Part shown: one piece after another, positions 36,692 through 58,555 of the stretch
How the letters are laid out: every line of letters begins with the position of its first letter
Position numbering within the stretch: the first letter of the stretch is position 1
Virus record (IMG/VR): IMGVR_UViG_3300024344_000009
Span: 1-59,911 of that record
Direction: 5' to 3' (one strand)
DNA: 59,911 bases
Source of the DNA: a virus
Taxonomy: Duplodnaviria; Caudoviricetes
Position numbers and translations under genes: made by a program
Notes under the pieces: generated by a model
Databases searched by the model: none
Told to the model about the DNA's origin: nothing
What the model saw: only the letters and a program-made list of their open reading frames with translations

Positions 36692-37807
36692 TTAACGTCC
36701 AGGTGGTGTAAATACATTCTGTGGCTCAGATGTATCACCGCTACCACCAAATACAGAATTAATACCATCACTAAGAAGTGAATCAACACTGGGCAATTTA
36801 CCAATAATACTAGATACACCGTCTGTAATATCTTCGTTGTTAATTGGATACATTGGTGGTAAATTCGCAGAAATAAAATCTTCACTAAGTTTTTGCGGAT
36901 AGGACATATCAAGCTGGTCGTATGAAAATGTTATAGTTATTTGCTGTGGACCACTCTTATCAAAATCTAATTCATCCATCTTTATATCAGAAATCTTAGG
37001 ATGATAATAATTATATGCAATATATTTCCTTCCCCAATCTAAAATATGATGGGCGGTAATCTGTACTATTGGATGATCTGTATATGAATTAAACTCGCCA
37101 GTACCAGGTAAAACACCACTAGAACCAGAACCACGGTCACTAGACAATCTAACAGCATAACCACCAGGAGGTTTTTCTACTTGATTATTTTGAAGTTTAG
37201 TTACATCCCAATCCATGCCTTGTTCACGTAAAAGGTCCAGATTTTTAAATCGGTCCCCAACGGCTATCGGAGATGTTAACCTTAAATATGTGTTCCAAAA
37301 AGTATGTCCAGCATCCTTCATATCATCATATAAAGTCATAGTAATAGGTTCATACATAATATTTTTTAATGCTTTAGTTCGAAAATTATACATGTTTATA
37401 TCTTCATATTCATATTTTACATTGGGTCTATCAATTTGTTTTACAAACCAATGCATTTCACCATTAGTATGAGGATTAAATACATCTTTGAAATCTGGTC
37501 GAACTTTTACACTTACGAAAAATAAAAATGGATATTTCGGTGGCATGAATTGCCCGAAATAATCGGCATACGGAGTTGGAGGACACCGAAGCTCATCAAA
37601 CGCACTCAAGAATTGACCTGATAATATATCTCCACGACCAAGAGCATTAATGCCCCCTTCAATACGATCACCTATATTCTCGCCAACTTGTACTACATTA
37701 TTTACTGTGCGTTGCAAATCTCGAACTCGGAACGTAGGTAAACGACTACCTCTATTAGTTCCTGTAGTTACAAACTTTTGCAAACAATCACGTGGATCTA
37801 AACTCAT
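36692..37807 (-). CDS. tail-tube-fold baseplate protein (gp54/gp48-like)
   Basis: VKQIDRP, INMYN, YEPITMTLYDD, ELDF..ITITFSYD. Confidence 0.6.
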   Translation of the reverse strand: MSLDPRDCLQKFVTTGTNRGSRLPTFRVRDLQRTVNNVVQVGENIGDRIEGGINALGRGDILSGQFLSAFDELRCPPTPYADYFGQFMPPKYPFLFFVSVKVRPDFKDVFNPHTNGEMHWFVKQIDRPNVKYEYEDINMYNFRTKALKNIMYEPITMTLYDDMKDAGHTFWNTYLRLTSPIAVGDRFKNLDLLREQGMDWDVTKLQNNQVEKPPGGYAVRLSSDRGSGSSGVLPGTGEFNSYTDHPIVQITAHHILDWGRKYIAYNYYHPKISDIKMDELDFDKSGPQQITITFSYDQLDMSYPQKLSEDFISANLPPMYPINNEDITDGVSSIIGKLPSVDSLLSDGINSVFGGSGDTSEPQNVFTPPGR

Positions 37808-37862: not shown

Positions 37863-38789
37863 ATGCCTAAAAAATTAACAAATAAAGAATTCATTCAAAA
37901 AGCAAATAAAGTCCATAATCACAAATATTCTTATCCTGATGGATATGTCAATTCTGCAACAAAGATAAAAATTATTTGTCCAATACATGGTGCTTTTTTT
38001 CAAAAACCAAATAATCATCTATCTGGTTATAAATGTGCTAAATGTGGGAGAATAAACAGTTCATATAGTAACACCAATACACATAAAAAAACATTCTGTA
38101 AAAAAGCAAATGAAGTTCATAATAATAAATATGAATATCCTGATGAATATGTTAATGCACATACTAAACTGAAAATAATATGCCCTGTTCATGGTGCTTT
38201 TTTACAATCACCTAATGGTCATTTAGCTGGACGTGGTTGTGGTGTATGTTCTAATAATATAAAGTTAACATCAAAAAAATTTATCAAAAAAGCAAATGAA
38301 GTTCATAATAACAAATATTCTTATCCTGATGAGTATGTTAATGCACATACTAAACTGAAAATCATTTGTCCAATACATGGCGAATTCTATCAAAGACCAC
38401 ATGATCACGTACATAGTAGCCCAACCAGATGCCCCCAATGTTCTAAACGAGGTTATTCACAAAAAGCAATATCTTGGTTAAACGAAATAGCAAAAAAAGG
38501 AAATATTCATATTCAACATGCAGAGAACAAAGGTGAATATAATATTCCCACTACAAATTATAAAGCTGATGGATATTGCGAAGCCAATAATACAATATAT
38601 GAGTTTTATGGCGATATTTGGCATGGCAATTTGGAATTATATAACGAAAACGAACAATGTCATCCATTTTCTAATGAATCTGCCGGTAGTTTATATATGA
38701 AAACCATGCAACGAGAACAAATCATAAAAGATTTAGGTTATAATTTAATCACTATTTGGGAAAATGAATTTAAATGCCTAAAAAATTAA
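37863..38789 (+). CDS. family A endonuclease, 3 Zn repeats (array copy 1)
   Basis: Repeat + Vsr-like motifs. Confidence 0.8.
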   Translation: MPKKLTNKEFIQKANKVHNHKYSYPDGYVNSATKIKIICPIHGAFFQKPNNHLSGYKCAKCGRINSSYSNTNTHKKTFCKKANEVHNNKYEYPDEYVNAHTKLKIICPVHGAFLQSPNGHLAGRGCGVCSNNIKLTSKKFIKKANEVHNNKYSYPDEYVNAHTKLKIICPIHGEFYQRPHDHVHSSPTRCPQCSKRGYSQKAISWLNEIAKKGNIHIQHAENKGEYNIPTTNYKADGYCEANNTIYEFYGDIWHGNLELYNENEQCHPFSNESAGSLYMKTMQREQIIKDLGYNLITIWENEFKCLKN

Positions 38790-40435
38790 CAAATAAAGAA
38801 TTTATTGAAAAAGCAAATAAAGTTCATAATCACAAATATTCTTATCCTGATGAATATATAAATTCTGCAACAAAGATAAAAATTATTTGCCCTATTCATG
38901 GTGAATTTTTACAATCACCTAATAGTCATTTACGAAGTGAGGAATGTGCTAAATGTGGGAGAATAAACAGTTCATATAATAACATCTATAAACATAAAAA
39001 AACGTTCTATATAAAAGCAAATAAAGTTCATAATAACAAATATGAATATCCTGATGAATATGTTAATGCACATACTAAACTGAAAATAATATGCCCTGTT
39101 CATGGTGCTTTTTTACAATCACCTAATGGTCATTTACGTGGTAGTGGATGTGGTGTATGTTCTAATAATATAAAATTAACATCAAAAAAATTTATCAAAA
39201 AAGCAAATGAAGTTCATAATAACAAATATACTTATTCTGATGAATATGTTAATGCACATACTAAACTAAAAATAATATGCCCTGTTCATGGTGCTTTTTA
39301 TCAAAGACCAAACGGACACTTAGCTGGAAGTGGTTGTGTTAAATGCACAAATGTTGAAAAAATATCAACACCTGAATTCATTCAAAAAGCAAATGAAGTT
39401 CATAATAACAAATATTCTTATCCTGATGAATATGTTAATAATCATTCAAAAATAAAAATTATTTGTCCAGTACATGGCGAATTTTATCAAAAACCTAAAT
39501 ATCATTTAAAAGGTGGTGGATGTCAAATTTGTAGTGGACGTAAAAAGCCAACAACACCTGAATTCATTCTAAAAGCAAATGAAGTTCATAATAACAAATA
39601 TTCTTATCCTGATGAATATATAAATTCACAAACTAAAATAAAAATTATTTGTCCAGTGCATGGCGAATTTTATCAAAAACCTGCTAGTCATACAAATAAA
39701 AAATATGGATGTCCAAAATGTTCTAATAATAAAAAATTAACATCAGAAATATTTATCGAACACGCTAATAACATTCATAATCAGAAATATTCTTATCCTG
39801 ATGAATACATAAATTCAAAAAATAAAATAAAAATTATTTGTCCAATACATGGCGAATTTTATCAAAGACCTAATGATCATACAAATAAAGAATATGGATG
39901 CCCCCAATGTTCTAATAATAATAAAAAGTTAACAACAGAAAGATTTATCGAACACGCCAATAACATTCATAATCAGAAATATTCTTATCCTGATGAATAC
40001 ATAAATTCAAAAAATAAAATAAAAATTATTTGTCCAATACACGGTGAATTTTATCAAAGACCAAACGGACATTTAGCGGGAAATGGTTGTACTAAATGTT
40101 CATTGTGTGGATATTCAAAAGTAGCAATATCTTGGTTAAACGAAATAGCAAAAAAGGGAAATATTCATATTCAACATGCAGAGAACAAAGGTGAATATTC
40201 AATACCAGGAACAAATTATAAAGCTGATGGATATTGTGAAGCCAATAATACAATATATGAGTTTTATGGCGATATTTGGCATGGCAATTTGGAATTATAT
40301 AACGAAAACGAACAATGTCATCCATTTTCTAATGAATCTGCCGGTAGTTTATATATGAAAACCATGCAACGTGAACAAATCATAAAAAATTTAGGTTATA
40401 ATTTAATTACTATTTGGGAACATGATTTTGTCTAA
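38774..40435 (+). CDS. family A endonuclease, 7 Zn repeats (array copy 2)
   Basis: Repeat + Vsr-like motifs. Confidence 0.8.
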   Translation: MPKKLTNKEFIEKANKVHNHKYSYPDEYINSATKIKIICPIHGEFLQSPNSHLRSEECAKCGRINSSYNNIYKHKKTFYIKANKVHNNKYEYPDEYVNAHTKLKIICPVHGAFLQSPNGHLRGSGCGVCSNNIKLTSKKFIKKANEVHNNKYTYSDEYVNAHTKLKIICPVHGAFYQRPNGHLAGSGCVKCTNVEKISTPEFIQKANEVHNNKYSYPDEYVNNHSKIKIICPVHGEFYQKPKYHLKGGGCQICSGRKKPTTPEFILKANEVHNNKYSYPDEYINSQTKIKIICPVHGEFYQKPASHTNKKYGCPKCSNNKKLTSEIFIEHANNIHNQKYSYPDEYINSKNKIKIICPIHGEFYQRPNDHTNKEYGCPQCSNNNKKLTTERFIEHANNIHNQKYSYPDEYINSKNKIKIICPIHGEFYQRPNGHLAGNGCTKCSLCGYSKVAISWLNEIAKKGNIHIQHAENKGEYSIPGTNYKADGYCEANNTIYEFYGDIWHGNLELYNENEQCHPFSNESAGSLYMKTMQREQIIKNLGYNLITIWEHDFV

Positions 40436-41537
40436 AAAATTAACAACTAGTGAGTTTATTCAAAAAGCAAATAAAGTTCATAATCACAAATATACTTATC
40501 CTGATGAATATATTAATGTAAAAACTAAAATTAAAATTATTTGTCCAATACATGGTGAATTTTATCAAAGAAGTGATAATCATCTATCTGGTCAAGGCTG
40601 TCCGACATGTAGTACTAAGAAAAAGCTAAAATATAAAGAATTCATCTATCGTTCTAATGCTATACATAACAACCAATATGAATATCCTGATGAATATATC
40701 AATTCATATACTAAAGTTAGAATTATTTGTCCAGTACATGGTGATTTTTTTCAAACACCAAATAAACATTTATCTGGACATGAATGTACTTATTGCAATA
40801 AATCGGCGAAATTAACAAACGAACAATTCATTCAAAAAGCTCATACTATTCATAATAATAAATATGAATATCCTGATGAATACACAAATGCTAGGGCTAA
40901 CATTAGAATAATCTGCCCTATTCATGGTGAATTCTATCAACAATCTAGTTCACATTTATCTAAACATGGTTGCCCGTCATGTAGTAATAAAAATAAGAAT
41001 AAGAATAAGAAACTAACAACCAAAATATTTATTACGCGATCAAGCAAAATTCATAATAACAAATATGATTATCCTAATGAATATATTAATGCTAGAACTA
41101 AAATTAAAGTTATTTGTCCAATACATGGGGAATTTTATCAGCGTTCTAGCTCACATTTAAATGAGAAACAAGGTTGTCAAAAATGTACTTCTTATAAAGG
41201 ATATTCTAAAAAATCAATATCTTGGTTAAACGAAATAGCAAAAAAGGAAAATATTCATATTCACCATGCAGAGAATGGTGGTGAATATTCAATACCAAGA
41301 ACAAAATATAAAGCTGATGGATATTGCGAAGTCAATAATACGATATATGAATTCTATGGTGATTGTTGGCATGGCAATTTGGAATTATATGAAGAAGATG
41401 AACAATGTCATCCATTTTCTGATGAATGTGCCGGTAGCTTATATATAAAAACAATGCAACGTGAACAAATCATAAAAGATTTAGGTTATAATTTAATCAC
41501 TATTTGGGAGCGTGAATATAAATGCCTAAAAAATTAA
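40422..41537 (+). CDS. family A endonuclease, 4 Zn repeats (array copy 3)
   Basis: Repeat + Vsr-like motifs. Confidence 0.8.
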   Translation: MILSKKLTTSEFIQKANKVHNHKYTYPDEYINVKTKIKIICPIHGEFYQRSDNHLSGQGCPTCSTKKKLKYKEFIYRSNAIHNNQYEYPDEYINSYTKVRIICPVHGDFFQTPNKHLSGHECTYCNKSAKLTNEQFIQKAHTIHNNKYEYPDEYTNARANIRIICPIHGEFYQQSSSHLSKHGCPSCSNKNKNKNKKLTTKIFITRSSKIHNNKYDYPNEYINARTKIKVICPIHGEFYQRSSSHLNEKQGCQKCTSYKGYSKKSISWLNEIAKKENIHIHHAENGGEYSIPRTKYKADGYCEVNNTIYEFYGDCWHGNLELYEEDEQCHPFSDECAGSLYIKTMQREQIIKDLGYNLITIWEREYKCLKN

Positions 41538-42454
41538 CAAACAAACAATTTATTGAAAAAGCAAATAAAATTCATAATAACAAATATGAATATCTTGGTG
41601 AATATGTCAATTCCGAAACTAAAATAAAAATTATTTGTCAAATACATGGCGTTTTTTTTCAAACACCACACGGCCATTTATCAGGTAAAGGGTGTAAACA
41701 ATGTGGAAACCAAATAAATTCTGAAAAAAATACATTAAAATTTTCGGAATTTGTTAAAAAAGCTAACCGTATACATAATAATACATATACATATGTAGAT
41801 TATATAAATTATGTTACACCAATACCAATAATATGCTCAATACATGGTGAATTTTTACAAACACCGAAAATGCATTTTAGCGGTCAAGGCTGTAAAAAAT
41901 GCGGGTTTATTAAAACCAAAAATGCATTAACAAAAAACTTTAAGACATTTGAATCAGAAGCAAATGAAGTTCATAATAACAAATATACTTATTTTGATGA
42001 ATATGTTAATGCTCATTCAAAAATAAAAATTATTTGTCAAATACATGGTGAATTTTATCAAAGACCACATGATCACGTATCTCGTAGGCCAACCAGATGC
42101 CCCCAATGTGCCAAATCAAATTATTCACAAAAGGCAATATCTTGGTTAAACAAAATAGCAAAAAAAGAAAATATTTATATTCAACATGCAGAGAACAAAG
42201 GTGAATATTCAATACCACTAACCAAGTATAAAGCTGATGGATACTGTGAAAAAACAAATACAATTTATGAGTTTTACGGTGATAAATTTCACGGAAATTT
42301 AAAATTATTTAACGAAAATGAACAATGTCATCCATTTTCTGATGAATGTGCCGGTAGCTTATATATAAAAACAATGCAACGTGAACAAATCATAAAAGAT
42401 TTAGGTTATAATTTAATCACTATTTGGGAGCGTGAATATAAAGGGGGATGTTAA
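41522..42454 (+). CDS. family A endonuclease, 3 Zn repeats (array copy 4)
   Basis: Repeat + Vsr-like motifs. Confidence 0.8.
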   Translation: MPKKLTNKQFIEKANKIHNNKYEYLGEYVNSETKIKIICQIHGVFFQTPHGHLSGKGCKQCGNQINSEKNTLKFSEFVKKANRIHNNTYTYVDYINYVTPIPIICSIHGEFLQTPKMHFSGQGCKKCGFIKTKNALTKNFKTFESEANEVHNNKYTYFDEYVNAHSKIKIICQIHGEFYQRPHDHVSRRPTRCPQCAKSNYSQKAISWLNKIAKKENIYIQHAENKGEYSIPLTKYKADGYCEKTNTIYEFYGDKFHGNLKLFNENEQCHPFSDECAGSLYIKTMQREQIIKDLGYNLITIWEREYKGGC

Positions 42455-42550
42455 ACATCCCCCTTTCAAAAATATGACACATCCCTGTGTTTCTCACCAT
42501 CCTTTGGAAACTTCCATATTCAATGTTTCCCTACATCTCCAATCCTTTAT
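42436..42550 (-). ncRNA. candidate CsrB/RsmY-like GGA-hairpin RNA in tail tube 3' UTR
   Basis: 7 GGA in ~107 nt, several in hairpin loops including ACACAGGGATGTGT; ends in terminator. Confidence 0.55.
42440..42466. terminator. terminator hairpin between tail tube gene and nuclease array
   Basis: AAAGGGGGATGT/ACATCCCCCTTT stem between convergent genes. Confidence 0.8.
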
Positions 42551-43158
42551 TGATTAGCTCCTGGAACTTTATTAGCATTAGCAGGTCCGCCTAGAGCCAC
42601 GCCTTCGCCTTGGTCATAACCGCCAATAAGTTGTCTTGCATGGTCATAACGCATAGTTAGTGTAATCTGCACTGCTGTACTATCAGAATAATCTAAATCA
42701 GTATAATCAACAGATTGCAACCAACAACCTTCCATAAACCATTGTTCTATGACCTGTTCGTTACCATCTAACATATCTAAAGTAGTAACAAACTTATAAA
42801 GTGAACCTTCACCCCTACTTGCCAAAAATGGACCTTCTGCACCAATCAAGAATTGCTGTGCTTGTACTTGATCTTGTATAACTCGCGTAGCGGTTCCAGT
42901 GACATCATCTTCAACTGTCATTGTCATTTGTTCAAATGTATGCTTACCAGCAATCCATGCTTGTGAATTATAACGATTCAACGGTACTTCTTCAAAAGTA
43001 ATAACTGGGCGTGCAACAGTAACTACTTGCATAGATAATGGTTGTGAATCTACACCGCCACCAATGCTAGCAAATGTTACTCGCCATTTATTCTTTAGTT
43101 TTGGTTGTAAAATCCCGTTACCGACGCCTGGAATCCCAATATCTGTTATGCTTGCCAT
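42547..43158 (-). CDS. gp19: tail tube protein (gp19-like)
   Basis: PKLKNKWRV, RP, YNS..AGKHTF, DD, W..EGCW, LDYS..ITLTMRYD; start 43158 by AGGAGA SD. Confidence 0.88.
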   Translation of the reverse strand: MASITDIGIPGVGNGILQPKLKNKWRVTFASIGGGVDSQPLSMQVVTVARPVITFEEVPLNRYNSQAWIAGKHTFEQMTMTVEDDVTGTATRVIQDQVQAQQFLIGAEGPFLASRGEGSLYKFVTTLDMLDGNEQVIEQWFMEGCWLQSVDYTDLDYSDSTAVQITLTMRYDHARQLIGGYDQGEGVALGGPANANKVPGANQ

Positions 43159-43198
43159 GTTGAACTTTCTCCTTTTTCCATGTTCTAAATATATATAG

Positions 43199-43206
43199 TA
43201 TTTATA
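43199..43206 (-). promoter_or_regulatory. T4-type late promoter of tail tube gene
   Basis: TATAAATA. Confidence 0.75.
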
Positions 43207-43219
43207 ACGGTCACATAAA

Positions 43220-44980
43220 ATGAATGAAAATTTAACAAAACTTATTAAAAAATCTAAAGAATACAAAAAGATAGGTGGGCTGCGGTTTCATCCAGAATAT
43301 CAAGAACTATTACAAAAAACTATGTTTCTTCCTGAAACTGCAAAAATCAGACAAAGAATATGGCATATAGAAAATGAATTATATGGGTCTCCTACATGCA
43401 AAATGTGTAAAAGACGCGTTTCGTGGAACAAAGATGCACTAGAATATAGAACATATTGTGGATCAAAGTGTGCTAATAATGATGACGATATTTTGAATAA
43501 ACGCAAACAAACAGTTTTAGAAAAATATGGCGTGGAATGTATTTCAAAAGCAACATCTATTAAAGAAAAAATCAAAGAAACAAATTTAAAAAAATATGGC
43601 GTTGATAATCCAACCAAAAATAAAAACATATCTGAAAAAGTAAAAAATACACTAAAAGCTACGCACGAAAAACTTGGTAATTCTATTAAAGAAAAAACTG
43701 CAAAAACCAATTTAGAAAGACATGGTGTTACAAATCCTTTCAAATCAGAAAAGATAAAAGATAAAATAAAACAAACTAATTTAAAAAAATATGGCAATGA
43801 AGTTCCCATTCGTACAGAAGAGATAAAAGATAAAATAAAACAAACTAATTTAGAAAAATATGGTGTCGAATGGAACATAATAAGTAAAGAATCACGCATT
43901 AAACAAAAAGAAACCAATTTTAAAAGATACGGAACAGAAAATGTCTTTTTTGACTATTCACAACGCAATATACATTCTTCTACCCTCAAAAAATTGGGCG
44001 ATAAAATATGGCTAGAAAATGAACATGTTAAATTACAAAAGCCCCTAGCACAAATTGCACGTGAACTCGGAGTATGTGGATCTACTGTTGAAAATAGATT
44101 TCATCAATTTAATTTACCGATAAAAAATTATTTTTTTTCACAAGCAGAAAAAGAAATAGGTGACTGGATAAGTACTTTAGGAGTAAAAGTTATTAGAAAT
44201 AGTCGTTCTATAATACCACCAATGGAACTTGATATTTATTGTCCTGATTACAACATAGCAATAGAATATAATGGTTTATTTTGGCATTCTAATAAACCAA
44301 AAAATTATCATTTAGAAAAAACGAAAATGTGTGAACACAATGGAATAAGGGTTATTCATATTTTTGAAGATGAATGGCGTGATCAACAAGATAAATGCAA
44401 AGACACATTAAAACATTTCTTCAACAAAAGTGAAAAGGGTGTATATGCTAGGAAAACTGTTATCAAAGAAATTAAATGGAAAACTGCAAAAAACTTTTTA
44501 AATGCATATCATCTATTAAATGCCGGTGGATGCGGGTCTTATAGAATAGGAGCATATCACAAGGACGAGTTAATTGGTGTTATGGTTTTCGGGAATACAA
44601 CAAGCGAAAATACTAATAAAAATACTATAGAATTAAAACGATTTGTTACTAACAAGAAAAACAATCCTGGTTTGGGATCTAAAATGTTTAAATATGCCAT
44701 AAAACAAAAAAATTATGAAAATGTTATAGCATTTGTAGATAGAAGATGGTTTACAGGACTTGTAAAAGATCATATAGGATTTAATTTGGTTGATGTCACA
44801 AAACCGGCATTATGGTGGACTAATGACAAGAATCGTTTTCATAGAAGATTCATTACAAAACAACATCTTATCGAAAACGGACACGACAATACATTATCAA
44901 AAAAAGATATTCTCAATAAATTGGGGTATAAACAAATATGGGACTGCGGAAAACTTAAATTAATATGGTCAAAATATTAA
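43220..44980 (+). CDS. family B endonuclease: ~6 repeats + HTH + Vsr-like + GNAT/Mom-like
   Basis: YGV repeats, LAQIARELGV, IAIEYNGLFWHS, ELKRF, WDCG. Confidence 0.8.
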   Translation: MNENLTKLIKKSKEYKKIGGLRFHPEYQELLQKTMFLPETAKIRQRIWHIENELYGSPTCKMCKRRVSWNKDALEYRTYCGSKCANNDDDILNKRKQTVLEKYGVECISKATSIKEKIKETNLKKYGVDNPTKNKNISEKVKNTLKATHEKLGNSIKEKTAKTNLERHGVTNPFKSEKIKDKIKQTNLKKYGNEVPIRTEEIKDKIKQTNLEKYGVEWNIISKESRIKQKETNFKRYGTENVFFDYSQRNIHSSTLKKLGDKIWLENEHVKLQKPLAQIARELGVCGSTVENRFHQFNLPIKNYFFSQAEKEIGDWISTLGVKVIRNSRSIIPPMELDIYCPDYNIAIEYNGLFWHSNKPKNYHLEKTKMCEHNGIRVIHIFEDEWRDQQDKCKDTLKHFFNKSEKGVYARKTVIKEIKWKTAKNFLNAYHLLNAGGCGSYRIGAYHKDELIGVMVFGNTTSENTNKNTIELKRFVTNKKNNPGLGSKMFKYAIKQKNYENVIAFVDRRWFTGLVKDHIGFNLVDVTKPALWWTNDKNRFHRRFITKQHLIENGHDNTLSKKDILNKLGYKQIWDCGKLKLIWSKY

Positions 44981-44986
44981 AACAAT

Positions 44987-46006
44987 TTACACCGTATATG
45001 TAAATCGTTTTAAACCACAAGTCCATATCCTGTATATTTCATGATTTATACAATTCTCATATTCGGTTAAAGTTGGGTCAAAATTGGGTAACATTTTTGC
45101 CAAAGCTTTACGCCTAAATCCAAATTTATGGCGTAATTCGCCATTATATATGTAGTAATAATCTGGTTCGAGTTCTTTATCTAATTTAAATCCTGTTTTT
45201 TCATATAACTTACCTTCACTCCATCGTAAATCTGCAAAAGTAATAATTTCTTTTTTTGGATAATTATTAATAAAATATTTTAATAACTTAGAAAAACCAC
45301 CAACAACCTGTTTACTTGAAGCAAATCTATTTAAAACATAATTATTCTTATTATTTACAAACGTTACAAGTGATACAAGTTCATTTTCAAAATATAATCC
45401 CAATGATATAGATCCTAATCCTTTACCTTGTATATGATGTTGATTCATAAAATCATTTTTAATATTAGAATTAACAAGCTTAACATGTGTTTTTCTAGCA
45501 TATATAGGCCGGTCTTTAGTTTTAAAAATTATATGTTTTATTTTTTTCTTTATTAATTCCTTTTTATTTAACCACTCGTTTTCAAATAATGTTATCAATC
45601 TGTAACCATTTTCGTTACATCTATCCAGTTTATATTTGTGATAGATACTTGATTTGCCCTTAAACTCAGTATGCCAATACAATCCACAATATTCTATAGC
45701 CAATTTTTGTGAAGGAATTACAATATCTAATTCTAATGGGTTTATGATTGTTTTATCATTCCTAATAACTTCTACGCCCAATGATTCAATATAATCACCC
45801 AATTCCTTTTCGTCCATAGAAAACATAAAATTTTGTATTCCGTGTGAATGTAAATATCTCTCTACCATATCATAAGATACATTCAATTCTCTCGAAATTT
45901 GTGATAATTGTTTTTCTTGTACTACATGTTCATCATACATCCATTTTTTATCATTTAATTTATCCAAAATATGTTTAGGTATATCTCGTTCATATTTTTC
46001 TTGCAT
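44987..46006 (-). CDS. family B endonuclease lacking repeats (HTH + Vsr-like + GNAT/Mom-like)
   Basis: LSQISRELNV, LAIEYCGLYWH, LNRFA..GGFSKL, WTCG. Confidence 0.78.
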   Translation of the reverse strand: MQEKYERDIPKHILDKLNDKKWMYDEHVVQEKQLSQISRELNVSYDMVERYLHSHGIQNFMFSMDEKELGDYIESLGVEVIRNDKTIINPLELDIVIPSQKLAIEYCGLYWHTEFKGKSSIYHKYKLDRCNENGYRLITLFENEWLNKKELIKKKIKHIIFKTKDRPIYARKTHVKLVNSNIKNDFMNQHHIQGKGLGSISLGLYFENELVSLVTFVNNKNNYVLNRFASSKQVVGGFSKLLKYFINNYPKKEIITFADLRWSEGKLYEKTGFKLDKELEPDYYYIYNGELRHKFGFRRKALAKMLPNFDPTLTEYENCINHEIYRIWTCGLKRFTYTV

Positions 46007-46139: not shown

Positions 46140-48197
46140 TCAGCCATAAATCCAAACTTGATTACCACAATCATATATTTTTCTAAAACCATTATTATAC
46201 ATATTTTCTGATGCAGTTAAACACGGATCAAAATTTCCTAATATATTTTTTAATTTGTGCTTCTGATATTTTAAACGTGATTCCAATAATAATCCTGTAC
46301 GGTTATGACAATAATACCAATAATTTGGTTTAGATATATGATCCAATTTAAATCCTAATTGTTTATATAAATTACCATTAGATTTTCGCATGTCTGCATA
46401 TGAAATAATTATTCCATTATGACTCCGTTTAAAATATTTGAATAGTTTAGAAGCACCACCAATAACGGAATTATATTTCTTATTGCAATAACGCACAAGC
46501 TCCCAATCCACTTTTTTATTATATCGTGATTTGCCAAATGTCATTATAGACACAAGTTCATTATTATAGTAAAGACCTATTCTAATAGAACTGTTAACCG
46601 AGCCTTGAAGATGATTATCTATAAGAAATTCTTTACTTTCTTTAGACGAGACATGTTTTATTTCACATTTTCTAGCATAAATTTTATTAGATTTGTCTAT
46701 TTTATTTGCAATAATAGACTTCCAAATATCTTGTTTTACTATATCATTCCATTCATTTTCGAAAATATGAAATAATTGTATATTATTATTCAAACACATT
46801 TGTGTTTTTCTTAAATGATAATCACTACGTTCATTTTCAATACAATCCGTCGAATGATAATATAAACCATCGTATTCAATAGCCAAATTATATTCAGGTA
46901 AATAAATATCCAATTCTTTGGGATTTATTATCTTTCTTGTATTTGAAACTACGTTATCAGTCAAAGATTGACAAAACTCAAAAACTTCTTTTTCTGCTAT
47001 TGATCTATTATAAGGATAGCATTTAATACATCTAATATCCTCTTGTCCCACTTTAAATCCTATATTACCACATTTTAGATGCTTGTATTTAAATTTATAT
47101 TCTGTATCTGAAATATATTCGTTTTCTGTAGTTAATAGTTCGTAATCAACAGGAAACGATTTTACTAAAAATTTATAATACTTTCTTTTATTTGTTTCAC
47201 TTGATTTCAAAACAAGTTCTTGAGCTTTAGTTAATCCTGTCTCCGAATTTAATGTATTTAATGTTTCTTTTATTTTCAATCCATTTACTTGATATCCAGT
47301 TAACCCAGTTTTAGGATCTATTTTAGATAAAGTATTTTTAGATTTTAATCCAATCTCTTGAAAACCAGTTAACCCAGTTTTAGGATCTATTTTAGATAAA
47401 GTATTTTTAGATTTTAATCCAATCTCTTGTGCTTTAGTTAATCCTGTTTCCGAATTTAATGTATTTAATACTTCACTTACTTTCAATCCAATCTCTTGAA
47501 AACCAGTTAACCCAGTTTTAGGATCTATTTTAGATAAAACTTTTTCGCGTTTCTTCACGCGGCTTTTAGATATTTCTGGATTATTTAGTAATGTTTTACT
47601 GGTTTTCAATCCAATCTCTTGAAAACCCGTTAACCCAGTTTTAGGATCTATTTTAGATAAAGTATTTTTGGCTTTTAATCCAATCTCTTGTGCTTTAGTT
47701 AGTCCTGTATTATTATTTATAATAGCCTTTGTTTTACGTTGTTTCGCGGAAGATTTTTCATAAATAGATAATCCCTGTGTGTCCTTTATTCTCATAGTTT
47801 TAGAGGCTTTTATAGCACCTTCTTGAGATATAGACAATCCAGTTTTATTAATTTTTTTTTTGGTTAATGATTGTTTTATGCCATTTTTTTGTTGAATAGT
47901 TAAACCGGATTCATCTTTATACTCACTTCTACATTTTAATGAACAAAATCGAATTTTAGCACCATTCTTAGTGATATTTATATCAGTACATGTTTCGCAA
48001 TTAAGACACTTAACCTGTTCAAAAATATCATTTTGTACATACCACAATCTAACTGATAATCTAGGATTGCCAACCAAAAACGAAGTTTCTTTTCTCAATA
48101 AGTCGCCCAAAGGTGAACCTTCTCTACATTTAGAAGATGGTCTTTTGATTTTAATATCAAGAAATAAATTTTTAAGTTCATTTGAATATTTTTTCAT
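46140..48197 (-). CDS. family B endonuclease with different 23-aa repeat (TGLT type, ~10 units)
   Basis: SKIDPKTGLTGFQEIGLKSKNTL repeats; LAIEYDGLYYHS; ELVRY..GGASKL..YDCG. Confidence 0.8.
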   Translation of the reverse strand: MKKYSNELKNLFLDIKIKRPSSKCREGSPLGDLLRKETSFLVGNPRLSVRLWYVQNDIFEQVKCLNCETCTDINITKNGAKIRFCSLKCRSEYKDESGLTIQQKNGIKQSLTKKKINKTGLSISQEGAIKASKTMRIKDTQGLSIYEKSSAKQRKTKAIINNNTGLTKAQEIGLKAKNTLSKIDPKTGLTGFQEIGLKTSKTLLNNPEISKSRVKKREKVLSKIDPKTGLTGFQEIGLKVSEVLNTLNSETGLTKAQEIGLKSKNTLSKIDPKTGLTGFQEIGLKSKNTLSKIDPKTGLTGYQVNGLKIKETLNTLNSETGLTKAQELVLKSSETNKRKYYKFLVKSFPVDYELLTTENEYISDTEYKFKYKHLKCGNIGFKVGQEDIRCIKCYPYNRSIAEKEVFEFCQSLTDNVVSNTRKIINPKELDIYLPEYNLAIEYDGLYYHSTDCIENERSDYHLRKTQMCLNNNIQLFHIFENEWNDIVKQDIWKSIIANKIDKSNKIYARKCEIKHVSSKESKEFLIDNHLQGSVNSSIRIGLYYNNELVSIMTFGKSRYNKKVDWELVRYCNKKYNSVIGGASKLFKYFKRSHNGIIISYADMRKSNGNLYKQLGFKLDHISKPNYWYYCHNRTGLLLESRLKYQKHKLKNILGNFDPCLTASENMYNNGFRKIYDCGNQVWIYG

Positions 48198-50433: not shown

Positions 50434-50516
50434 TGGAAATCTCCTTATATATGTTTCCATCGAGTTTTGTTTGTGCCGTGGATTCAGTAAACTCTAAACT
50501 GAACTGGCTTCAATTA

Positions 50517-56857: not shown

Positions 56858-56886
56858 ATTATAACATAAAAACTACTTTTTGCCTA
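56858..56886 (-). promoter_or_regulatory. sigma70-type promoter, leaderless
   Basis: TAGGCA-17-TATAAT with extended TG; ATG 7 nt downstream. Confidence 0.65.
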
Positions 56887-58555
56887 CTTTTTCTGATGAA
56901 ACTCTATTAGAACTAGCCAAAAATTCACTTAATATAGGCTTTTGCTCATTATGTGCCTTCCTCAAATCTGTTTCTATCCATATCCATCTATCTTTAGCAT
57001 TTGACCATCTAAACAATCGTGGTGCTATATTAGTACCTACTTGATTATATGTAAGCCTATGATAATCACCATTTTTAGGTAAATCAGGGAATTCATCTGC
57101 TTCTGTGTAAGGTAAGTGGTTCGGAGGTAGAGCGTCTTCTACATATAATTGATTTTTGTTAGAACTTATTATGCCCAAATTAGCTCCAGTTTGTTCTTTT
57201 ACCACATCACGTTGATGTTGATCAAACTCCTGTATATCGGCCATATCAGATCCCAATTCAGGAGTATTAGTTATAGCTTCTGACTGTATTGCATGTGTAG
57301 TTTCAGATAAATCTTGTACTTGTGGTTGTTCACCACGAATACCATCTAAATCTAACAAACCATATTTTACTAAACCAGATTCATCAGGCGTCTCTTCTAA
57401 ACCACCAAATATGTCAGCCGTTTCAGGTGTTCCCAACATAGGCATTGCAACTAATCTCAAAATTGTCGGAATCCATCCGGGTGTAAATCCCTCTGTACTC
57501 CAGCCCACGTCTGTTATTTCCATATACTTTTTAATAGGCTCTAATTTACTATTATATTGAGTTTCACTAGGAACTTCAAAAATATCACCAATAACCACTG
57601 GGCGTCCTAAACCAGCAACCATTGCACTAAACGACATTTGAATATACATTTGTTGATTAGGTAATTCAATACCAAATCGACTCAAATCAGTTGTAGAATC
57701 TAACAAATCATAAGTCCCTTTTAATAAAACAGCCTCTTCAGAATAATCTCGATTGCGATTTTCTAACCATATATGATCTTCTATATTATTTAACTGTGTT
57801 AATGAATAATCCATCATTTCTAAGGCTTGTACTGCCCAGTAATCATTAGAACTACCATTAAATGCTATTGGACGTATTCTCCAATATCGATTAGCTACAG
57901 AAGCACGAAAATGAATCGTATTTAAACAATTATCATCTGGCAATTCAATTACAGCGGCACCAAACCATTTAAAACCATCAAATGATCTCTCTATTCTTGC
58001 ACGCGTTACGCGGTTCTGTGAATTGTTTCCCTGCTTAATTTTAATAGTAGAAATACTATTGTTAACTGATGTATCAACCCCATAACGTTCGCGACCATTA
58101 GGTAACTTTATCGAACCAAAATCATATCCAATGTATCCAGAATCTATAATTCCTTGTCCCTTTTGTAAAGTTCTCCATTCAGTAACAAATGTAGTAAAAG
58201 CATTCTTCGCAGGGAAATTTATTGCCGCTCCACTAGAAATAGGATTGCCATTCCCAACTAAATCAATTAACTCGCCTTGTTCATGTACGCCTAATAACTT
58301 ATATACCAACATGTCTGCCGCACCAATATTTAAATGCTCTTCAATTACCCCATTAATAAAACATGTATCATCAAATTTTGTTAATTGAAAATCACTACAC
58401 GTTGAAGTAGAGGGCGTAGGACAAGAAGTCGGGCCAGGCAAACTTGTTACAGGTTGTACGGTGCAATTAGGGTCTAATGGATTAGTAGGCGTATTATTAG
58501 CTGGCAAATCACCGGGTACATACGTTCCCTCGCAAACTTCTTTTGTGCTCATCAA
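56873..58555 (-). CDS. neck protein (gp14-like) with inserted discoidin-like domain
   Basis: VYKLLG..IED..LENRNRDY..DLSRFG..LGR..GD..E.P..EG; upstream of gp15. Confidence 0.65.
   Translation of the reverse strand: MMSTKEVCEGTYVPGDLPANNTPTNPLDPNCTVQPVTSLPGPTSCPTPSTSTCSDFQLTKFDDTCFINGVIEEHLNIGAADMLVYKLLGVHEQGELIDLVGNGNPISSGAAINFPAKNAFTTFVTEWRTLQKGQGIIDSGYIGYDFGSIKLPNGRERYGVDTSVNNSISTIKIKQGNNSQNRVTRARIERSFDGFKWFGAAVIELPDDNCLNTIHFRASVANRYWRIRPIAFNGSSNDYWAVQALEMMDYSLTQLNNIEDHIWLENRNRDYSEEAVLLKGTYDLLDSTTDLSRFGIELPNQQMYIQMSFSAMVAGLGRPVVIGDIFEVPSETQYNSKLEPIKKYMEITDVGWSTEGFTPGWIPTILRLVAMPMLGTPETADIFGGLEETPDESGLVKYGLLDLDGIRGEQPQVQDLSETTHAIQSEAITNTPELGSDMADIQEFDQHQRDVVKEQTGANLGIISSNKNQLYVEDALPPNHLPYTEADEFPDLPKNGDYHRLTYNQVGTNIAPRLFRWSNAKDRWIWIETDLRKAHNEQKPILSEFLASSNRVSSEKVGKK

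What the first reader, a model, noticed from the sequence alone, without database searches (positions are those of the whole stretch)
42436..42550. Candidate phage CsrA/RsmA sponge RNA in the tail tube 3' UTR
Seen: the minus strand after the gp19 stop reads AGGATTGGAGATGTAGGGAAACATTGAATATGGAAGTTTCCAAAGGATGGTGAGAAACACAGGGATGTGTC, then a terminator. It has 7 GGA in ~107 nt, where roughly 1 is expected at this composition. Several sit in small hairpin loops: ATGT-AGGGAA-ACAT, AAT-ATGGAA-GTT, CCA-AAGGA-TGG, ACAC-AGGGAT-GTGT. Known: ACARGGAUGU is the high-affinity CsrA site, and CsrB/RsmY/RsmZ are strings of such hairpins ending in a terminator. Inference: an abundant late mRNA, or its processed 3' end, titrates host CsrA.
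Basis: partly seen in the sequence, partly recalled or inferred. Interest (0 to 1): 0.88.

Follow-up and report, generated by a model that had tools for sequence, protein, structure and literature searches.

The report
CsrA-site hairpin array on phage mRNA
The tail-tube messenger RNA of this giant phage ends in a short string of hairpins that match the published binding site of the bacterial regulator CsrA, and dozens of related uncultured phages carry the same string, so these phages may soak up or borrow a master regulator of their host.

Summary
After the tail-tube stop (42547-42549) the minus strand has 7 GGA in about 107 nt and ends in a strong hairpin.

On its own this is weak. Shuffles of the strand reach 7 GGA somewhere in 66 of 200 cases. 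Only one hairpin (42476-42491) is a canonical site, and folding partly buries three GGAs.

Relatives settle it.
- In 86 non-redundant related phage loci, the 100 nt after the tail-tube stop hold 76 CANGGANG, the published high-affinity CsrA/RsmE hexaloop motif. That is 8.9/kb against 0.12/kb elsewhere, with 1 on the antisense.
- 38 loci carry it there and 8 more after an inserted small ORF, just before the terminator wherever one was called.
- Stems covary, motif cores are conserved (4 of 180 changed, against 283 of 723 around them), and sites lie 12-20 nt apart.

This is a selected array of CsrA-type binding hairpins on a late tail-tube transcript. It belongs to no Rfam Csr/Rsm family. No csrA gene was found in six clade records. 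The host is unknown and binding is untested.

Decoy action on host CsrA is the best reading (about 0.45). Cis stabilisation or a phage-encoded ligand remain open. My literature searches found no report of it.

The parts
43199..43206 (-). Late-promoter-like TATAAATA, about 40 nt before the tail-tube start codon
   Evidence: Coordinates. ATAAATA lies within 70 nt before the tail-tube start in 52 of 75 related loci, against 0.026 expected per locus. Its likeness to the T4 late promoter consensus is recalled, not tested.
43165..43175 (-). Shine-Dalgarno region AAAGGAGAAAG of the tail-tube gene
   Evidence: No CANGGANG hairpins occur upstream of the gene: 1 in 8140 nt over 74 loci.
42547..43158 (-). 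Tail tube gene (203 codons plus stop). My queries used 42547-43161, which adds one codon before the ATG.
   Evidence: PHROG phrog_4542 tail tube protein, E 5.2e-48. 53% identity to a protein of Ralstonia phage RsoM2USA, and to annotated tail tube proteins of other jumbo phages. True ATG seen.
42537..42546 (-). Two GGA (AGGAUUGGAG) directly after the stop, predicted single-stranded
   Evidence: P(unpaired) 0.9 and 0.67.
42522..42537 (-). Hairpin 1: 5-bp stem with hexaloop AGGGAA. The loop pattern A-N-GGA-N fits, but the closing pair is U-A rather than C-G.
   Evidence: GGA only 0.36 unpaired in the ensemble. Not found by model R1. U-A closing pairs make up 9 of 78 hexaloop sites in relatives.
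42508..42521 (-). Hairpin 2: weak 3-4 bp stem (with G-U pairs) and hexaloop AUGGAA
   Evidence: P(unpaired) 0.26-0.69. Not found by R1.
42497..42507 (-). Hairpin 3: CCA/UGG stem with pentaloop AAGGA
   Evidence: P(unpaired) about 0.26. Not found by R1.
42476..42491 (-). Hairpin 4: the canonical site ACAC-AGGGAU-GUGU, i.e. CAGGGAUG with a C-G closing pair
   Evidence: The only non-coding CANGGANG with a stem of at least 3 bp in the whole window. Best hit of model R1 in the window, 17.7 bits, E 0.014, at 42475-42492. P(unpaired) 0.93.
42440..42466 (-). G+C-rich terminator-type hairpin shared with the convergent + strand ORF. One GGA lies in its stem.
   Evidence: Folds. Not called by the terminator scanner. 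Relatives have clear hairpin plus T-run terminators at the same place.
41522..42454 (+). Convergent homing-endonuclease-like ORF whose last codons lie in the terminator stem (context only, not part of the array)
   Evidence: PHROG phrog_559 HNH endonuclease, E 2.2e-40.

Best explanation
The 3' end of the late tail-tube transcript is a module of short hairpins, each presenting A-N-G-G-A-N in a hexaloop closed by C-G, placed directly before the intrinsic terminator. This is the published high-affinity recognition element of CsrA/RsmA/RsmE proteins.

Shown here: the module is kept by selection across a large clade of uncultured jumbo phages. The window carries a partly degenerate copy with one canonical site, three looser ones, and two single-stranded GGAs.

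Inferred: the ligand is the host's CsrA-family protein. Because the tail-tube mRNA is a self-contained and presumably very abundant late transcript, the array acts as a decoy that ties up CsrA dimers late in infection. Sites 12-20 nt apart could let one dimer bridge neighbouring loops. It may act as the whole mRNA or as a stable 3' fragment that keeps the terminator.

The benefit is not known. One possibility is relief of CsrA repression on GGA-containing ribosome-binding sites of phage late mRNAs. Another is a shift of host metabolism.
For: Motif enrichment:
- In 86 non-redundant loci the sense 100 nt after the tail-tube stop hold 76 CANGGANG in 8525 nt (8.9/kb). The antisense holds 1, and the rest of the loci hold 78 in 652,410 nt (0.12/kb).
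- 38 of 86 loci have at least 1, 27 at least 2, and 11 at least 3.

Unbiased register test:
- The hexaloop NN-GGA-N with a stem of at least 3 bp holds 78 of 225 UTR GGAs, against 423 of 7151 elsewhere.
- The closing pair is C-G in 57 of 78 and the first loop base is A in 67 of 78.

Covariation:
- 74.2% of cells are paired, against 51.3% in shuffles (0 of 500 reach it).
- The covariation score is 0.607, against 0.191 shuffled and at most 0.199 when slid.
- The pair next to the C-G is formed in 71 of 73 rows, with AU 29, GC 14, UA 14 and CG 12.

Purifying selection:
- In 16 independent pairs of array UTRs the six core positions differ at 4 of 180, against 283 of 723 for the other positions.
- In the 7 closest pairs (at least 76% identity) the figures are 0 of 90 against 71 of 283, my sum of the rows.

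Exposure and spacing:
- 56 of 76 sites have GGA fully unpaired in MFE folds.
- Spacing between neighbouring sites is 12-20 nt in 34 of 38.

The motif equals the published one:
- The consensus A/U-CANGGANG-U/A (PMC6849547, passages).
- GGA in apical loops, from CLIP data (PMC5207318, passages).
- G after GGA, which would make a better ribosome-binding sequence, occurs in only 3 of 76.

The array stays with the 3' end of the transcription unit:
- In 8 loci with an extra small ORF after the tube gene, the hairpins sit after that ORF, 430-1200 nt downstream of the tube stop, with a G+C hairpin and T-run printed after them in most.

Self-contained late unit:
- ATAAATA precedes the gene in 52 of 75 loci, and again precedes the next gene in 61 of 80.
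- No such motif lies in front of the array in 36 of 38.

Precedent: an abundant structural mRNA titrating CsrA, flaA in C. jejuni (PMC4894983).
Against: - No binding or expression data exist.
- The host is unknown, so the presence of csrA is only a prior. PMC4894983 states that about 75% of sequenced bacterial genomes have a homologue.
- Rfam Csr/Rsm models do not recognise the region.
- The window's own copy is weak. Only one site is found by the model, three GGAs are partly buried by an alternative pairing and one lies in the terminator stem, and the GGA density alone is reached by 66 of 200 shuffles.
- Arrays have only 1-6 sites, far fewer than the large enterobacterial sponges (their site number is recalled, not checked).
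- The array is dispensable. On the array-bearing side of the tree, 19 of 61 rows lack it (quick tree). It is absent from the tail-tube 3' regions of 5 of 5 named jumbo phages examined.
- In Serratia, RsmA represses CRISPR-Cas, and phages are proposed to carry csrA genes to exploit this (PMC8450108, passages). Removing CsrA could therefore help host defence, which cuts against a simple benefit of titration.
- Its fixed place on one particular transcript would equally fit a cis role.
Confidence: 0.45

Rival explanations
1. Cis-acting use of host CsrA. CsrA bound at the 3' end protects the tail-tube mRNA from decay or tunes its translation, for example by bridging to the GGA of its own ribosome-binding site. 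The purpose is the amount of tail tube protein, not the level of free CsrA.
For: - The array is found only on this one transcription unit. Other CANGGANG pairs in the records of the window, L006, L009, L018 and L019 lie inside ORFs without stems.
- One or two sites, as in many loci, are enough for cis control but make a poor sponge.
- CsrA is reported to stabilise mRNAs by masking RNase E sites (PMC5207318 introduction, passage).
- Array-bearing loci more often have a tail-tube ribosome-binding site reading GGA followed by A, C or T instead of GGAG: 27 and 10 against 12 and 27, odds ratio 6.1, p 0.0003.
Against: - The association with the ribosome-binding site fades inside the array-bearing clade (odds ratio 2.8, p 0.087) and is not corrected for kinship.
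- No CANGGANG hairpins occur in the 5' leader: 1 in 8140 nt.
- In 8 loci another ORF separates the tube gene from the array.
- I know of no case of CsrA acting from a 3' UTR. My literature searches were not aimed at this point.
Confidence: 0.2
2. The ligand is phage-encoded. It would be a phage CsrA homologue, or an unrelated phage RNA-binding protein with the same loop preference, so the array is part of a phage-internal circuit.
For: - csrA genes occur in phages: 30 of 2517 genomes (PMC7366521, passages). Many more are reported in GenBank and IMG/VR (PMC8450108).
- One phage csrA homologue affects plaque size (PMC11879866, passage).
- In an unrelated 226-kb phage contig a CsrA-like ORF is itself preceded by GGA sites (L169).
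- All array-bearing records that I could search whole are only 17-20% complete.
Against: - Pfam CsrA (PF02599) gave no match at E<=1 in the window or in the records of L009, L006, L016 and L018. It also gave none in the 90%-complete 291-kb genome of L019, though that phage lacks the array.
- An unrelated protein converging on every feature of the CsrA site would be a coincidence.
Confidence: 0.12
3. For the window's own copy only: a decaying remnant. The array is functional in relatives, but this 30% G+C phage keeps one good site and several eroded ones. It would have little or no present activity beyond helping the terminator stabilise the 3' end.
For: - Only 1 of the 4 hairpins scores with the model.
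- The middle GGAs are mostly paired in the ensemble, and the four-hairpin fold is 5.4 kcal/mol above the MFE.
- Arrays have been lost repeatedly in the clade.
- Eroded sites are seen elsewhere: L048 has a hairpin of the same shape with GTGA in place of GGA.
- The locus has been heavily invaded by homing-endonuclease genes.
Against: - Three of the four window loops still read A-N-GGA-N.
- The U-A and U-G closing pairs seen here also occur in relatives: 9 and 3 of 78.
- Site spacing (about 13-22 nt) is as in relatives, and the UTR keeps the long form (about 80 nt) rather than the short 15-30 nt form of array-less loci.
- CsrA binds single-stranded GGA as well, and can remodel weak structure (general knowledge, not tested).
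Confidence: 0.15

Closest known systems
CsrB/CsrC and RsmX/RsmY/RsmZ decoy RNAs of Gammaproteobacteria
   Same: Strings of short hairpins with GGA in the loop, ending in an intrinsic terminator. The motif CANGGANG and the spacing suit binding of CsrA dimers (PMC4894983, PMC8545117 and PMC8450108 passages).
   Different: - It is not an independent gene. It is the 3' UTR of a protein-coding phage late transcript.
- It has no own late-type promoter in 36 of 38 loci.
- It has 1-6 sites only.
- There is no homology to the Rfam models.
- It is encoded by a virus.
flaA mRNA leader of Campylobacter jejuni (dual-function mRNA that titrates CsrA)
   Same: [quoted passage not shown]
   Different: - The flaA sites lie in the 5' leader and also repress flaA translation. 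Here the sites are at the 3' end and none are in the leader.
- flaA is a host gene, not a phage gene.
3' UTR-derived small RNAs that share the terminator of their parent mRNA
   Same: A conserved functional module directly upstream of the mRNA's own terminator. It stays with the terminator when the upstream coding content changes. The general concept is in PMC5207318, discussion passage.
   Different: The known examples cited there are Hfq-dependent base-pairing RNAs, not protein decoys. Processing of this UTR into a discrete RNA is not shown.
rrA/rrB/rrF RNAs at the 3' ends of E. coli rRNA operons
   Same: Short RNAs made as the tail of very highly transcribed units, reported to interact with CsrA in vitro (PMC8144298, title and start of the abstract in the search listing only).
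   Different: They are host RNAs placed between dual terminators. I did not read the paper, so their motif content is unknown to me.
Phage-encoded CsrA/RsmA proteins
   Same: Evidence that phages interfere with the Csr/Rsm system (PMC7366521, PMC8450108 and PMC11879866 passages).
   Different: Those add regulator protein. This would remove or recruit it. No csrA gene was found in the six clade records searched.

Membership tests
CsrA/Rsm protein-binding decoy RNAs (functional class) | Several GGA motifs, most in loops of short hairpins, of the A(N)GGA / CANGGANG type | tested here: met
   Relatives: 76 CANGGANG in 8525 nt, 27 of 86 loci with at least 2; hexaloop register and C-G closing pair; stems covary. 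Window: 7 GGA, one canonical site and three looser loops.
CsrA/Rsm protein-binding decoy RNAs (functional class) | Binds several CsrA dimers and lowers free CsrA activity in the cell | not testable with these tools
   No binding or in vivo data. The host is unknown.
CsrA/Rsm protein-binding decoy RNAs (functional class) | Intrinsic terminator at the 3' end | tested here: met
   Hairpin plus T-run found after the array in most relatives. In the window a strong hairpin with tail UUUAUAUU, which the scanner did not call.
CsrA/Rsm protein-binding decoy RNAs (functional class) | Own gene with own regulated promoter (GacA/UvrY-type control in the classical families; recalled) | tested here: not met
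   The array follows the tail-tube ORF on the same strand with no terminator between them. A late-promoter-like ATAAATA lies in the 200 nt before the array in only 2 of 38 loci. Other promoter types were not examined.
Rfam families CsrB, CsrC, RsmY, PrrB_RsmZ, RsmX and relatives (homology) | Score at or above the family's gathering threshold | tested here: not met
   Window: PrrB_RsmZ 16.2 bits against 44, E 0.21 in a 601-nt search. In 15 array-bearing relatives (48 kb) there is no Csr/Rsm hit at E<=1.
mRNA-embedded CsrA titrators (flaA leader type) | High-affinity GGA hexaloops on an abundant mRNA | tested here: inconclusive
   The hexaloops are met. Abundance is only inferred from the late-promoter-like motif in 52 of 75 loci and from the gene's role. 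No RNA data.
mRNA-embedded CsrA titrators (flaA leader type) | Sites in the 5' leader, overlapping or near the ribosome-binding site | tested here: not met
   1 CANGGANG in 8140 nt upstream of the gene in 74 loci. All arrays are 3' of the coding sequence.
3' UTR-derived small RNAs | A discrete stable RNA species ending at the mRNA's terminator | not testable with these tools
   No RNA run was available (see Tried and rejected). Only the module's linkage to the terminator is seen.
Plain intrinsic terminator region (ordinary 3' end) | G+C-rich hairpin and U tract with no further conserved elements | tested here: not met
   Array-less relatives have 15-30 nt UTRs with 0 GGA. Array-bearing ones have 40-72 nt with 2-6 GGA. 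The extra hairpins have conserved loops and covarying stems.

The most novel reading that the evidence does not exclude
A widespread clade of uncultured jumbo phages has built a decoy for the host's global post-transcriptional regulator CsrA into the 3' end of its tail-tube late mRNA. Late infection then releases CsrA-controlled translation, including that of the phage's own GGA-bearing ribosome-binding sites. This would be the first virus-encoded RNA sponge for a bacterial RNA-binding master regulator, and it would show that phage mRNAs can have a second, non-coding job. A similar-looking array next to the repressor gene of Pseudomonas prophage or tailocin clusters (seen in passing) hints that such decoys may recur in contractile-tail elements.
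Probability: 0.4. Interest if true: 0.85.

Novelty: new variant of a known kind. Interest (0 to 1): 0.78.

Why it matters
CsrA/Rsm proteins control carbon flow, motility, biofilm, virulence and, in Serratia, CRISPR-Cas (PMC8450108). Phages are already known to carry csrA genes, but the literature I could search has no case of a phage carrying the RNA side of the system.

If the array binds CsrA, three things follow:
- It gives a simple, testable example of a virus manipulating a bacterial RNA-binding hub with an untranslated part of a structural mRNA.
- It supplies about 80 natural, highly diverse CsrA-site hairpins for studying recognition rules.
- It suggests that 3' UTRs of phage late genes deserve systematic scanning for protein-binding motifs.

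The experiments need only in vitro transcripts and purified CsrA, or a reporter strain.

Tried and rejected
- **Rfam, window.** A permissive scan of 42200-42800 gave only sub-threshold hits. The top ones sit on the terminator hairpin on the other strand (sraA 26.5 bits against 56). PrrB_RsmZ scores 16.2 against 44.
- **Rfam, relatives.** The permissive scan of 15 array loci gave no Csr/Rsm family. The single hit, IRES_Bip, is chance.
- **DNA similarity.** A search of 41500-44000 against named phages found no match.
- **Named jumbo phages.** RsoM2USA, XacN1, PA5oct, Atu_ph07 and fENko-Kae01 have tail-tube 3' regions of 11-91 nt without GGA hairpins, 0 of 5. No cultured model was found.
- **csrA gene (PF02599).** There was no match in the window or in the records G001-G005. 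Five of the six are 17-24% fragments, so this says little. The records of L036, L065 and L058 are not held and were not searched.
- **Host.** A scan of GTDB genome contigs with the tail-tube alignment found no relative. The host remains unknown.
- **RNA evidence.** No RNA holder is listed. Only three DNA runs are. Read laying was not used, because contigs of DNA runs cannot show RNA ends.
- **Second GGA cluster in the window.** 57412-57541, minus strand, lies inside the ORF 56873..58555 and was dismissed as coding.
- **Other CANGGANG pairs.** Those in G002, G003 and G005 all lie in ORFs without stems.
- **Collection-wide pattern scan.** It returned mostly coding repeats and one unrelated Pseudomonas family, so it could not measure how general the arrays are.
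- **Big contigs from that scan.** Four of them (G006-G009) have no relative of this tail tube protein.
- **Model R1.** It was trained on exact CANGGANG, so it cannot judge sites with other closing pairs. The regex-free register test replaced it.
- **30S-subunit or ribosome decoy.** Rejected, because G after GGA occurs in only 3 of 76 sites.
- **RegB-type GGAG cleavage sites** (recalled from T4). Rejected for the same reason.
- **Independent late-promoter-driven small RNA.** Rejected: 2 of 38.
- **Tree.** The tree is the quick one. The careful search did not finish, the root is at the midpoint, and the main split has 85% SH-aLRT. I use it only for the rough distribution.
- **Literature.** Searches for a phage-borne CsrA-site array or sponge found none (also 36). 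Supplements are closed and subscription journals are not covered.
- **Not used.** Structure prediction, fold search and complex prediction were not used. The question is about RNA.
Full report
**What is there**

The window is a 59.9-kb fragment of an uncultured virus. CheckV puts it at 18% complete and it has about 30% G+C.

The gene ending at 42547 on the minus strand is a tail tube gene:
- PHROG phrog_4542, E 5.2e-48.
- 53% identity to a protein of the 344-kb Ralstonia phage RsoM2USA, and 30-47% to tail tube proteins of other jumbo phages.

Its real ATG is at 43158. My protein query began one codon earlier.

A tail sheath gene lies at 48292-50460. Between and around the tail genes lie seven homing-endonuclease-like ORFs.

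It has seven GGA. Four possible small hairpins hold GGA in the loop. A 9-12 bp G+C-rich hairpin follows at 42466-42440, and it is shared with a convergent + strand ORF ending at 42454.

**How strong is the window alone**

It is not strong.
- The stretch is the GGA-richest 110 nt on either strand, and the local expectation is 1.16 GGA.
- However, 200 dinucleotide shuffles of the strand reach at least 7 GGA per 107 nt somewhere in 66 cases, and at least 8 in 14.
- In the folding ensemble only the last hairpin (42476-42491) is reliably open, with P(unpaired) 0.93.
- The two GGAs next to the stop are single-stranded.
- The last GGA is in the terminator stem.
- The four-hairpin fold costs 5.4 kcal/mol over the MFE.
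- The terminator scanner did not call the hairpin.
- Rfam's PrrB_RsmZ model aligns end to end over 42436-42557, but at 16.2 bits against a gathering score of 44.

**Relatives**

The tail tube protein found 21 loci in IMG/VR. An alignment of 15 of these proteins (A1) found 80 more in metagenome contigs.

After removing near-identical copies and loci without enough downstream sequence, 86 remain. Their 3' UTRs fall into two classes:
- 15-30 nt with no GGA.
- 40-72 nt with 2-6 GGA.

The long ones are strings of short hairpins whose stems are all different and whose loops read the same way.

Counted without reference to structure:
- CANGGANG occurs 76 times in the 8525 nt that follow the stop on the sense strand.
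- It occurs once on the antisense of the same stretches.
- It occurs 78 times in the remaining 652,410 nt of both strands. That is 8.9 against 0.12 per kb.
- 38 of 86 loci have at least one, 27 at least two, and 11 at least three. One single hit, in L075, lies in a terminator stem and is probably chance.

A test that assumes no motif beyond GGA:
- The register with two unpaired bases before and one after GGA, closed by a stem of at least 3 bp, holds 78 of 225 UTR GGAs, against 423 of 7151 elsewhere.
- The other enriched registers are the same hairpins read one pair in or out.
- The closing pair is C-G in 57 of 78.
- The first loop base is A in 67 of 78.

**Structure and selection**

On the gap-free alignment of the 76 instances (A2), the six-pair stem is formed in 74.2% of cells, against 51.3% in column shuffles (0 of 500 reach it). 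The covariation score is 0.607 against 0.191, and at most 0.199 when the partner is slid. The pair next to the C-G is formed in 71 of 73 distinct rows, with AU 29, GC 14, UA 14 and CG 12.

The C-G pair itself is fixed by the way the instances were chosen, so it carries no weight here. supplies that point independently.

Other measures:
- In MFE folds from the stop to the terminator, 56 of 76 sites have GGA fully unpaired.
- In 16 independent pairs of array UTRs, the six core positions differ at 4 of 180 aligned places, against 283 of 723 for the rest.
- In the seven closest pairs the figures are 0 of 90 against 71 of 283 (my sum). Global alignment favours matching the cores in the distant pairs, which is why I give the close pairs separately.
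- Neighbouring sites are 12-20 nt apart in 34 of 38 cases.

**Where the array sits**

- The motif ATAAATA lies within 70 nt before the tail tube start in 52 of 75 loci (0.026 expected). It appears again before the next gene in 61 of 80. Its likeness to the T4 late promoter is recalled.
- The tail tube gene is therefore a unit of its own: promoter, gene, array, terminator.
- The 5' leaders have no such hairpins: 1 CANGGANG in 8140 nt.
- A late-type motif in front of the array occurs in only 2 of 38 loci, so the array is read as part of the mRNA.
- In eight loci a small ORF starts at the tube gene's stop. There the hairpins are found after that ORF, 430-1200 nt further on, and in most a G+C hairpin with a T-run is printed right after them. 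The module goes with the 3' end of the transcript, and the total becomes 46 of 86 loci.
- In the records I could search whole, no second array exists. The window has five CANGGANG in all, and only the UTR one is non-coding with a stem. The other close pairs in four related records are inside ORFs without stems.

On a quick tree of 85 tail tube proteins, sites were counted as A-first hexaloops with at least 3 bp.

| Side of the main split | At least 2 sites | 1 site | Displaced array | None |
|---|---|---|---|---|
| 61 rows | 20 | 14 | 8 | 19 |
| 24 rows | 0 | 3 | 0 | 21 |

Array-bearing loci range from 28 to 52% G+C.

**What it is**

The consensus found here is the published optimal site of the CsrA family:
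- A/U-CANGGANG-U/A (PMC6849547, passages).
- GGA in apical loops, from CLIP (PMC5207318, passages).

G after GGA would improve pairing with 16S rRNA, yet it occurs in 3 of 76 sites. The loops are therefore not ribosome-binding mimics.

I conclude, with high confidence for the clade and moderate confidence for the window's eroded copy, that this is an array of CsrA-type protein-binding hairpins kept by selection.

**How it most likely works**

- Shown: motif, structure, conservation, position.
- Inferred: the ligand and the purpose.

The most economical ligand is host CsrA. PMC4894983 states that about 75% of sequenced bacterial genomes have a homologue.

A late, self-contained transcript for a protein needed in very many copies should be abundant. 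Two to six high-affinity sites per molecule, spaced for dimer bridging, would then tie up CsrA. This is the way the abundant flaA mRNA does it in C. jejuni (PMC4894983). I put this decoy reading at about 0.45.

Points against it:
- The array has few sites.
- It has been lost often, and it is absent from five named jumbo phages.
- RsmA represses CRISPR-Cas in Serratia, so removing it is not obviously good for a phage (PMC8450108).

A cis role, stabilising or tuning the tail tube mRNA, gets 0.2.
- It fits the restriction to one transcript.
- It fits a weak link with GGA-not-GGAG ribosome-binding sites: odds ratio 6.1 overall, but 2.8 with p 0.087 inside the clade, uncorrected for kinship.

A phage-encoded ligand gets 0.12.
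- Phage csrA genes exist.
- None was found in six clade records. Five of those are small fragments, and the one 90%-complete genome lacks the array.

**Comparison with what is known, and novelty**

In function and form it works like the Csr/Rsm decoy RNAs and the flaA leader. It is not a member of any Rfam Csr/Rsm family. It is not an independent gene, and it lies at the 3' rather than the 5' end of an mRNA.

Seven full-text searches found phage-encoded CsrA proteins but no phage-encoded CsrA-site array or sponge. Supplements and subscription journals were out of reach.

I rate it a new variant of a known kind.

**Limits**

- The host is unknown. The genome-contig scan was empty.
- There are no RNA data.
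- There is no cultured relative with the array.

Noticed in passing
L188:686-821 (+); same element in about 40 further distinct loci among L113-L192: A conserved G+C-rich non-coding element with 4-5 CANGGANG hairpins lies just after a CI/LexA-like S24 repressor gene and its terminator, in prophage- or tailocin-like contigs. The best named match is Pseudomonas phage DVM-2008 from P. fluorescens Q8r1-96. Rfam PrrB_RsmZ scores only 20.5 bits against 44. It is a candidate mobile-element-borne Rsm-type decoy RNA. The copies are too alike for covariation: 1 of 39 pairs varies on both sides.
   Followed up: partly
L169:10146-10177 (+) and the ORF that follows: In an unrelated 226-kb phage contig (CheckV 100%), three GGA sites precede an ORF whose N-terminus looks like CsrA. 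This may be a phage csrA gene with its own CsrA-type leader. The likeness was judged by eye only.
   Followed up: no
window 37863-42454 (+), 43220-44980 (+), 44987-46006 (-), 46140-48197 (-): Seven homing-endonuclease-like ORFs (PHROG 559, 681, 3339) crowd the tail gene block. The four on the + strand are built from repeated 60-70 aa modules with CxxHG...C motifs. They separate the tail tube gene from the second tube-like gene (36692-37807), which in relatives follows directly.
   Followed up: partly
window 42440-42466: The last codons and the stop of the convergent endonuclease ORF (41522..42454) lie inside the terminator hairpin of the tail tube transcript. One hairpin therefore serves both strands and also carries coding sequence.
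   Followed up: no
L026, L027, L032, L041, L046, L060, L092, L096 (just after the tail tube stop): A small ORF starts at or overlapping the tail tube stop (TAATG in several), and the GGA-hairpin array follows it. The products differ between loci, but those of L032, L041 and L096 share an RLLELAG-like stretch. Function unknown.
   Followed up: no
L048, about 20-35 nt after the tail tube stop: A hairpin of the usual shape has GTGA where relatives have GGA (TCACAGTGATGTGA). It looks like a freshly lost site.
   Followed up: no
L003, L008, L009, L029, L035, L049, L057 terminators: In these loci the terminator hairpin itself presents the motif (for example AAGGAT or AGGGAT) in its loop, so the terminator doubles as a site.
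   Followed up: partly
window 43165-43175 and the same place in relatives: Array-bearing loci tend to have a tail tube ribosome-binding site with GGA followed by A, C or T rather than GGAG (27 and 10 against 12 and 27). The link weakens inside the clade (p 0.087) and may only reflect kinship.
   Followed up: partly
L180:2519-2599 (+): A clear match to Rfam Proteo-phage-1 RNA (86.6 bits against 42), in one of the Pseudomonas-type contigs.
   Followed up: no
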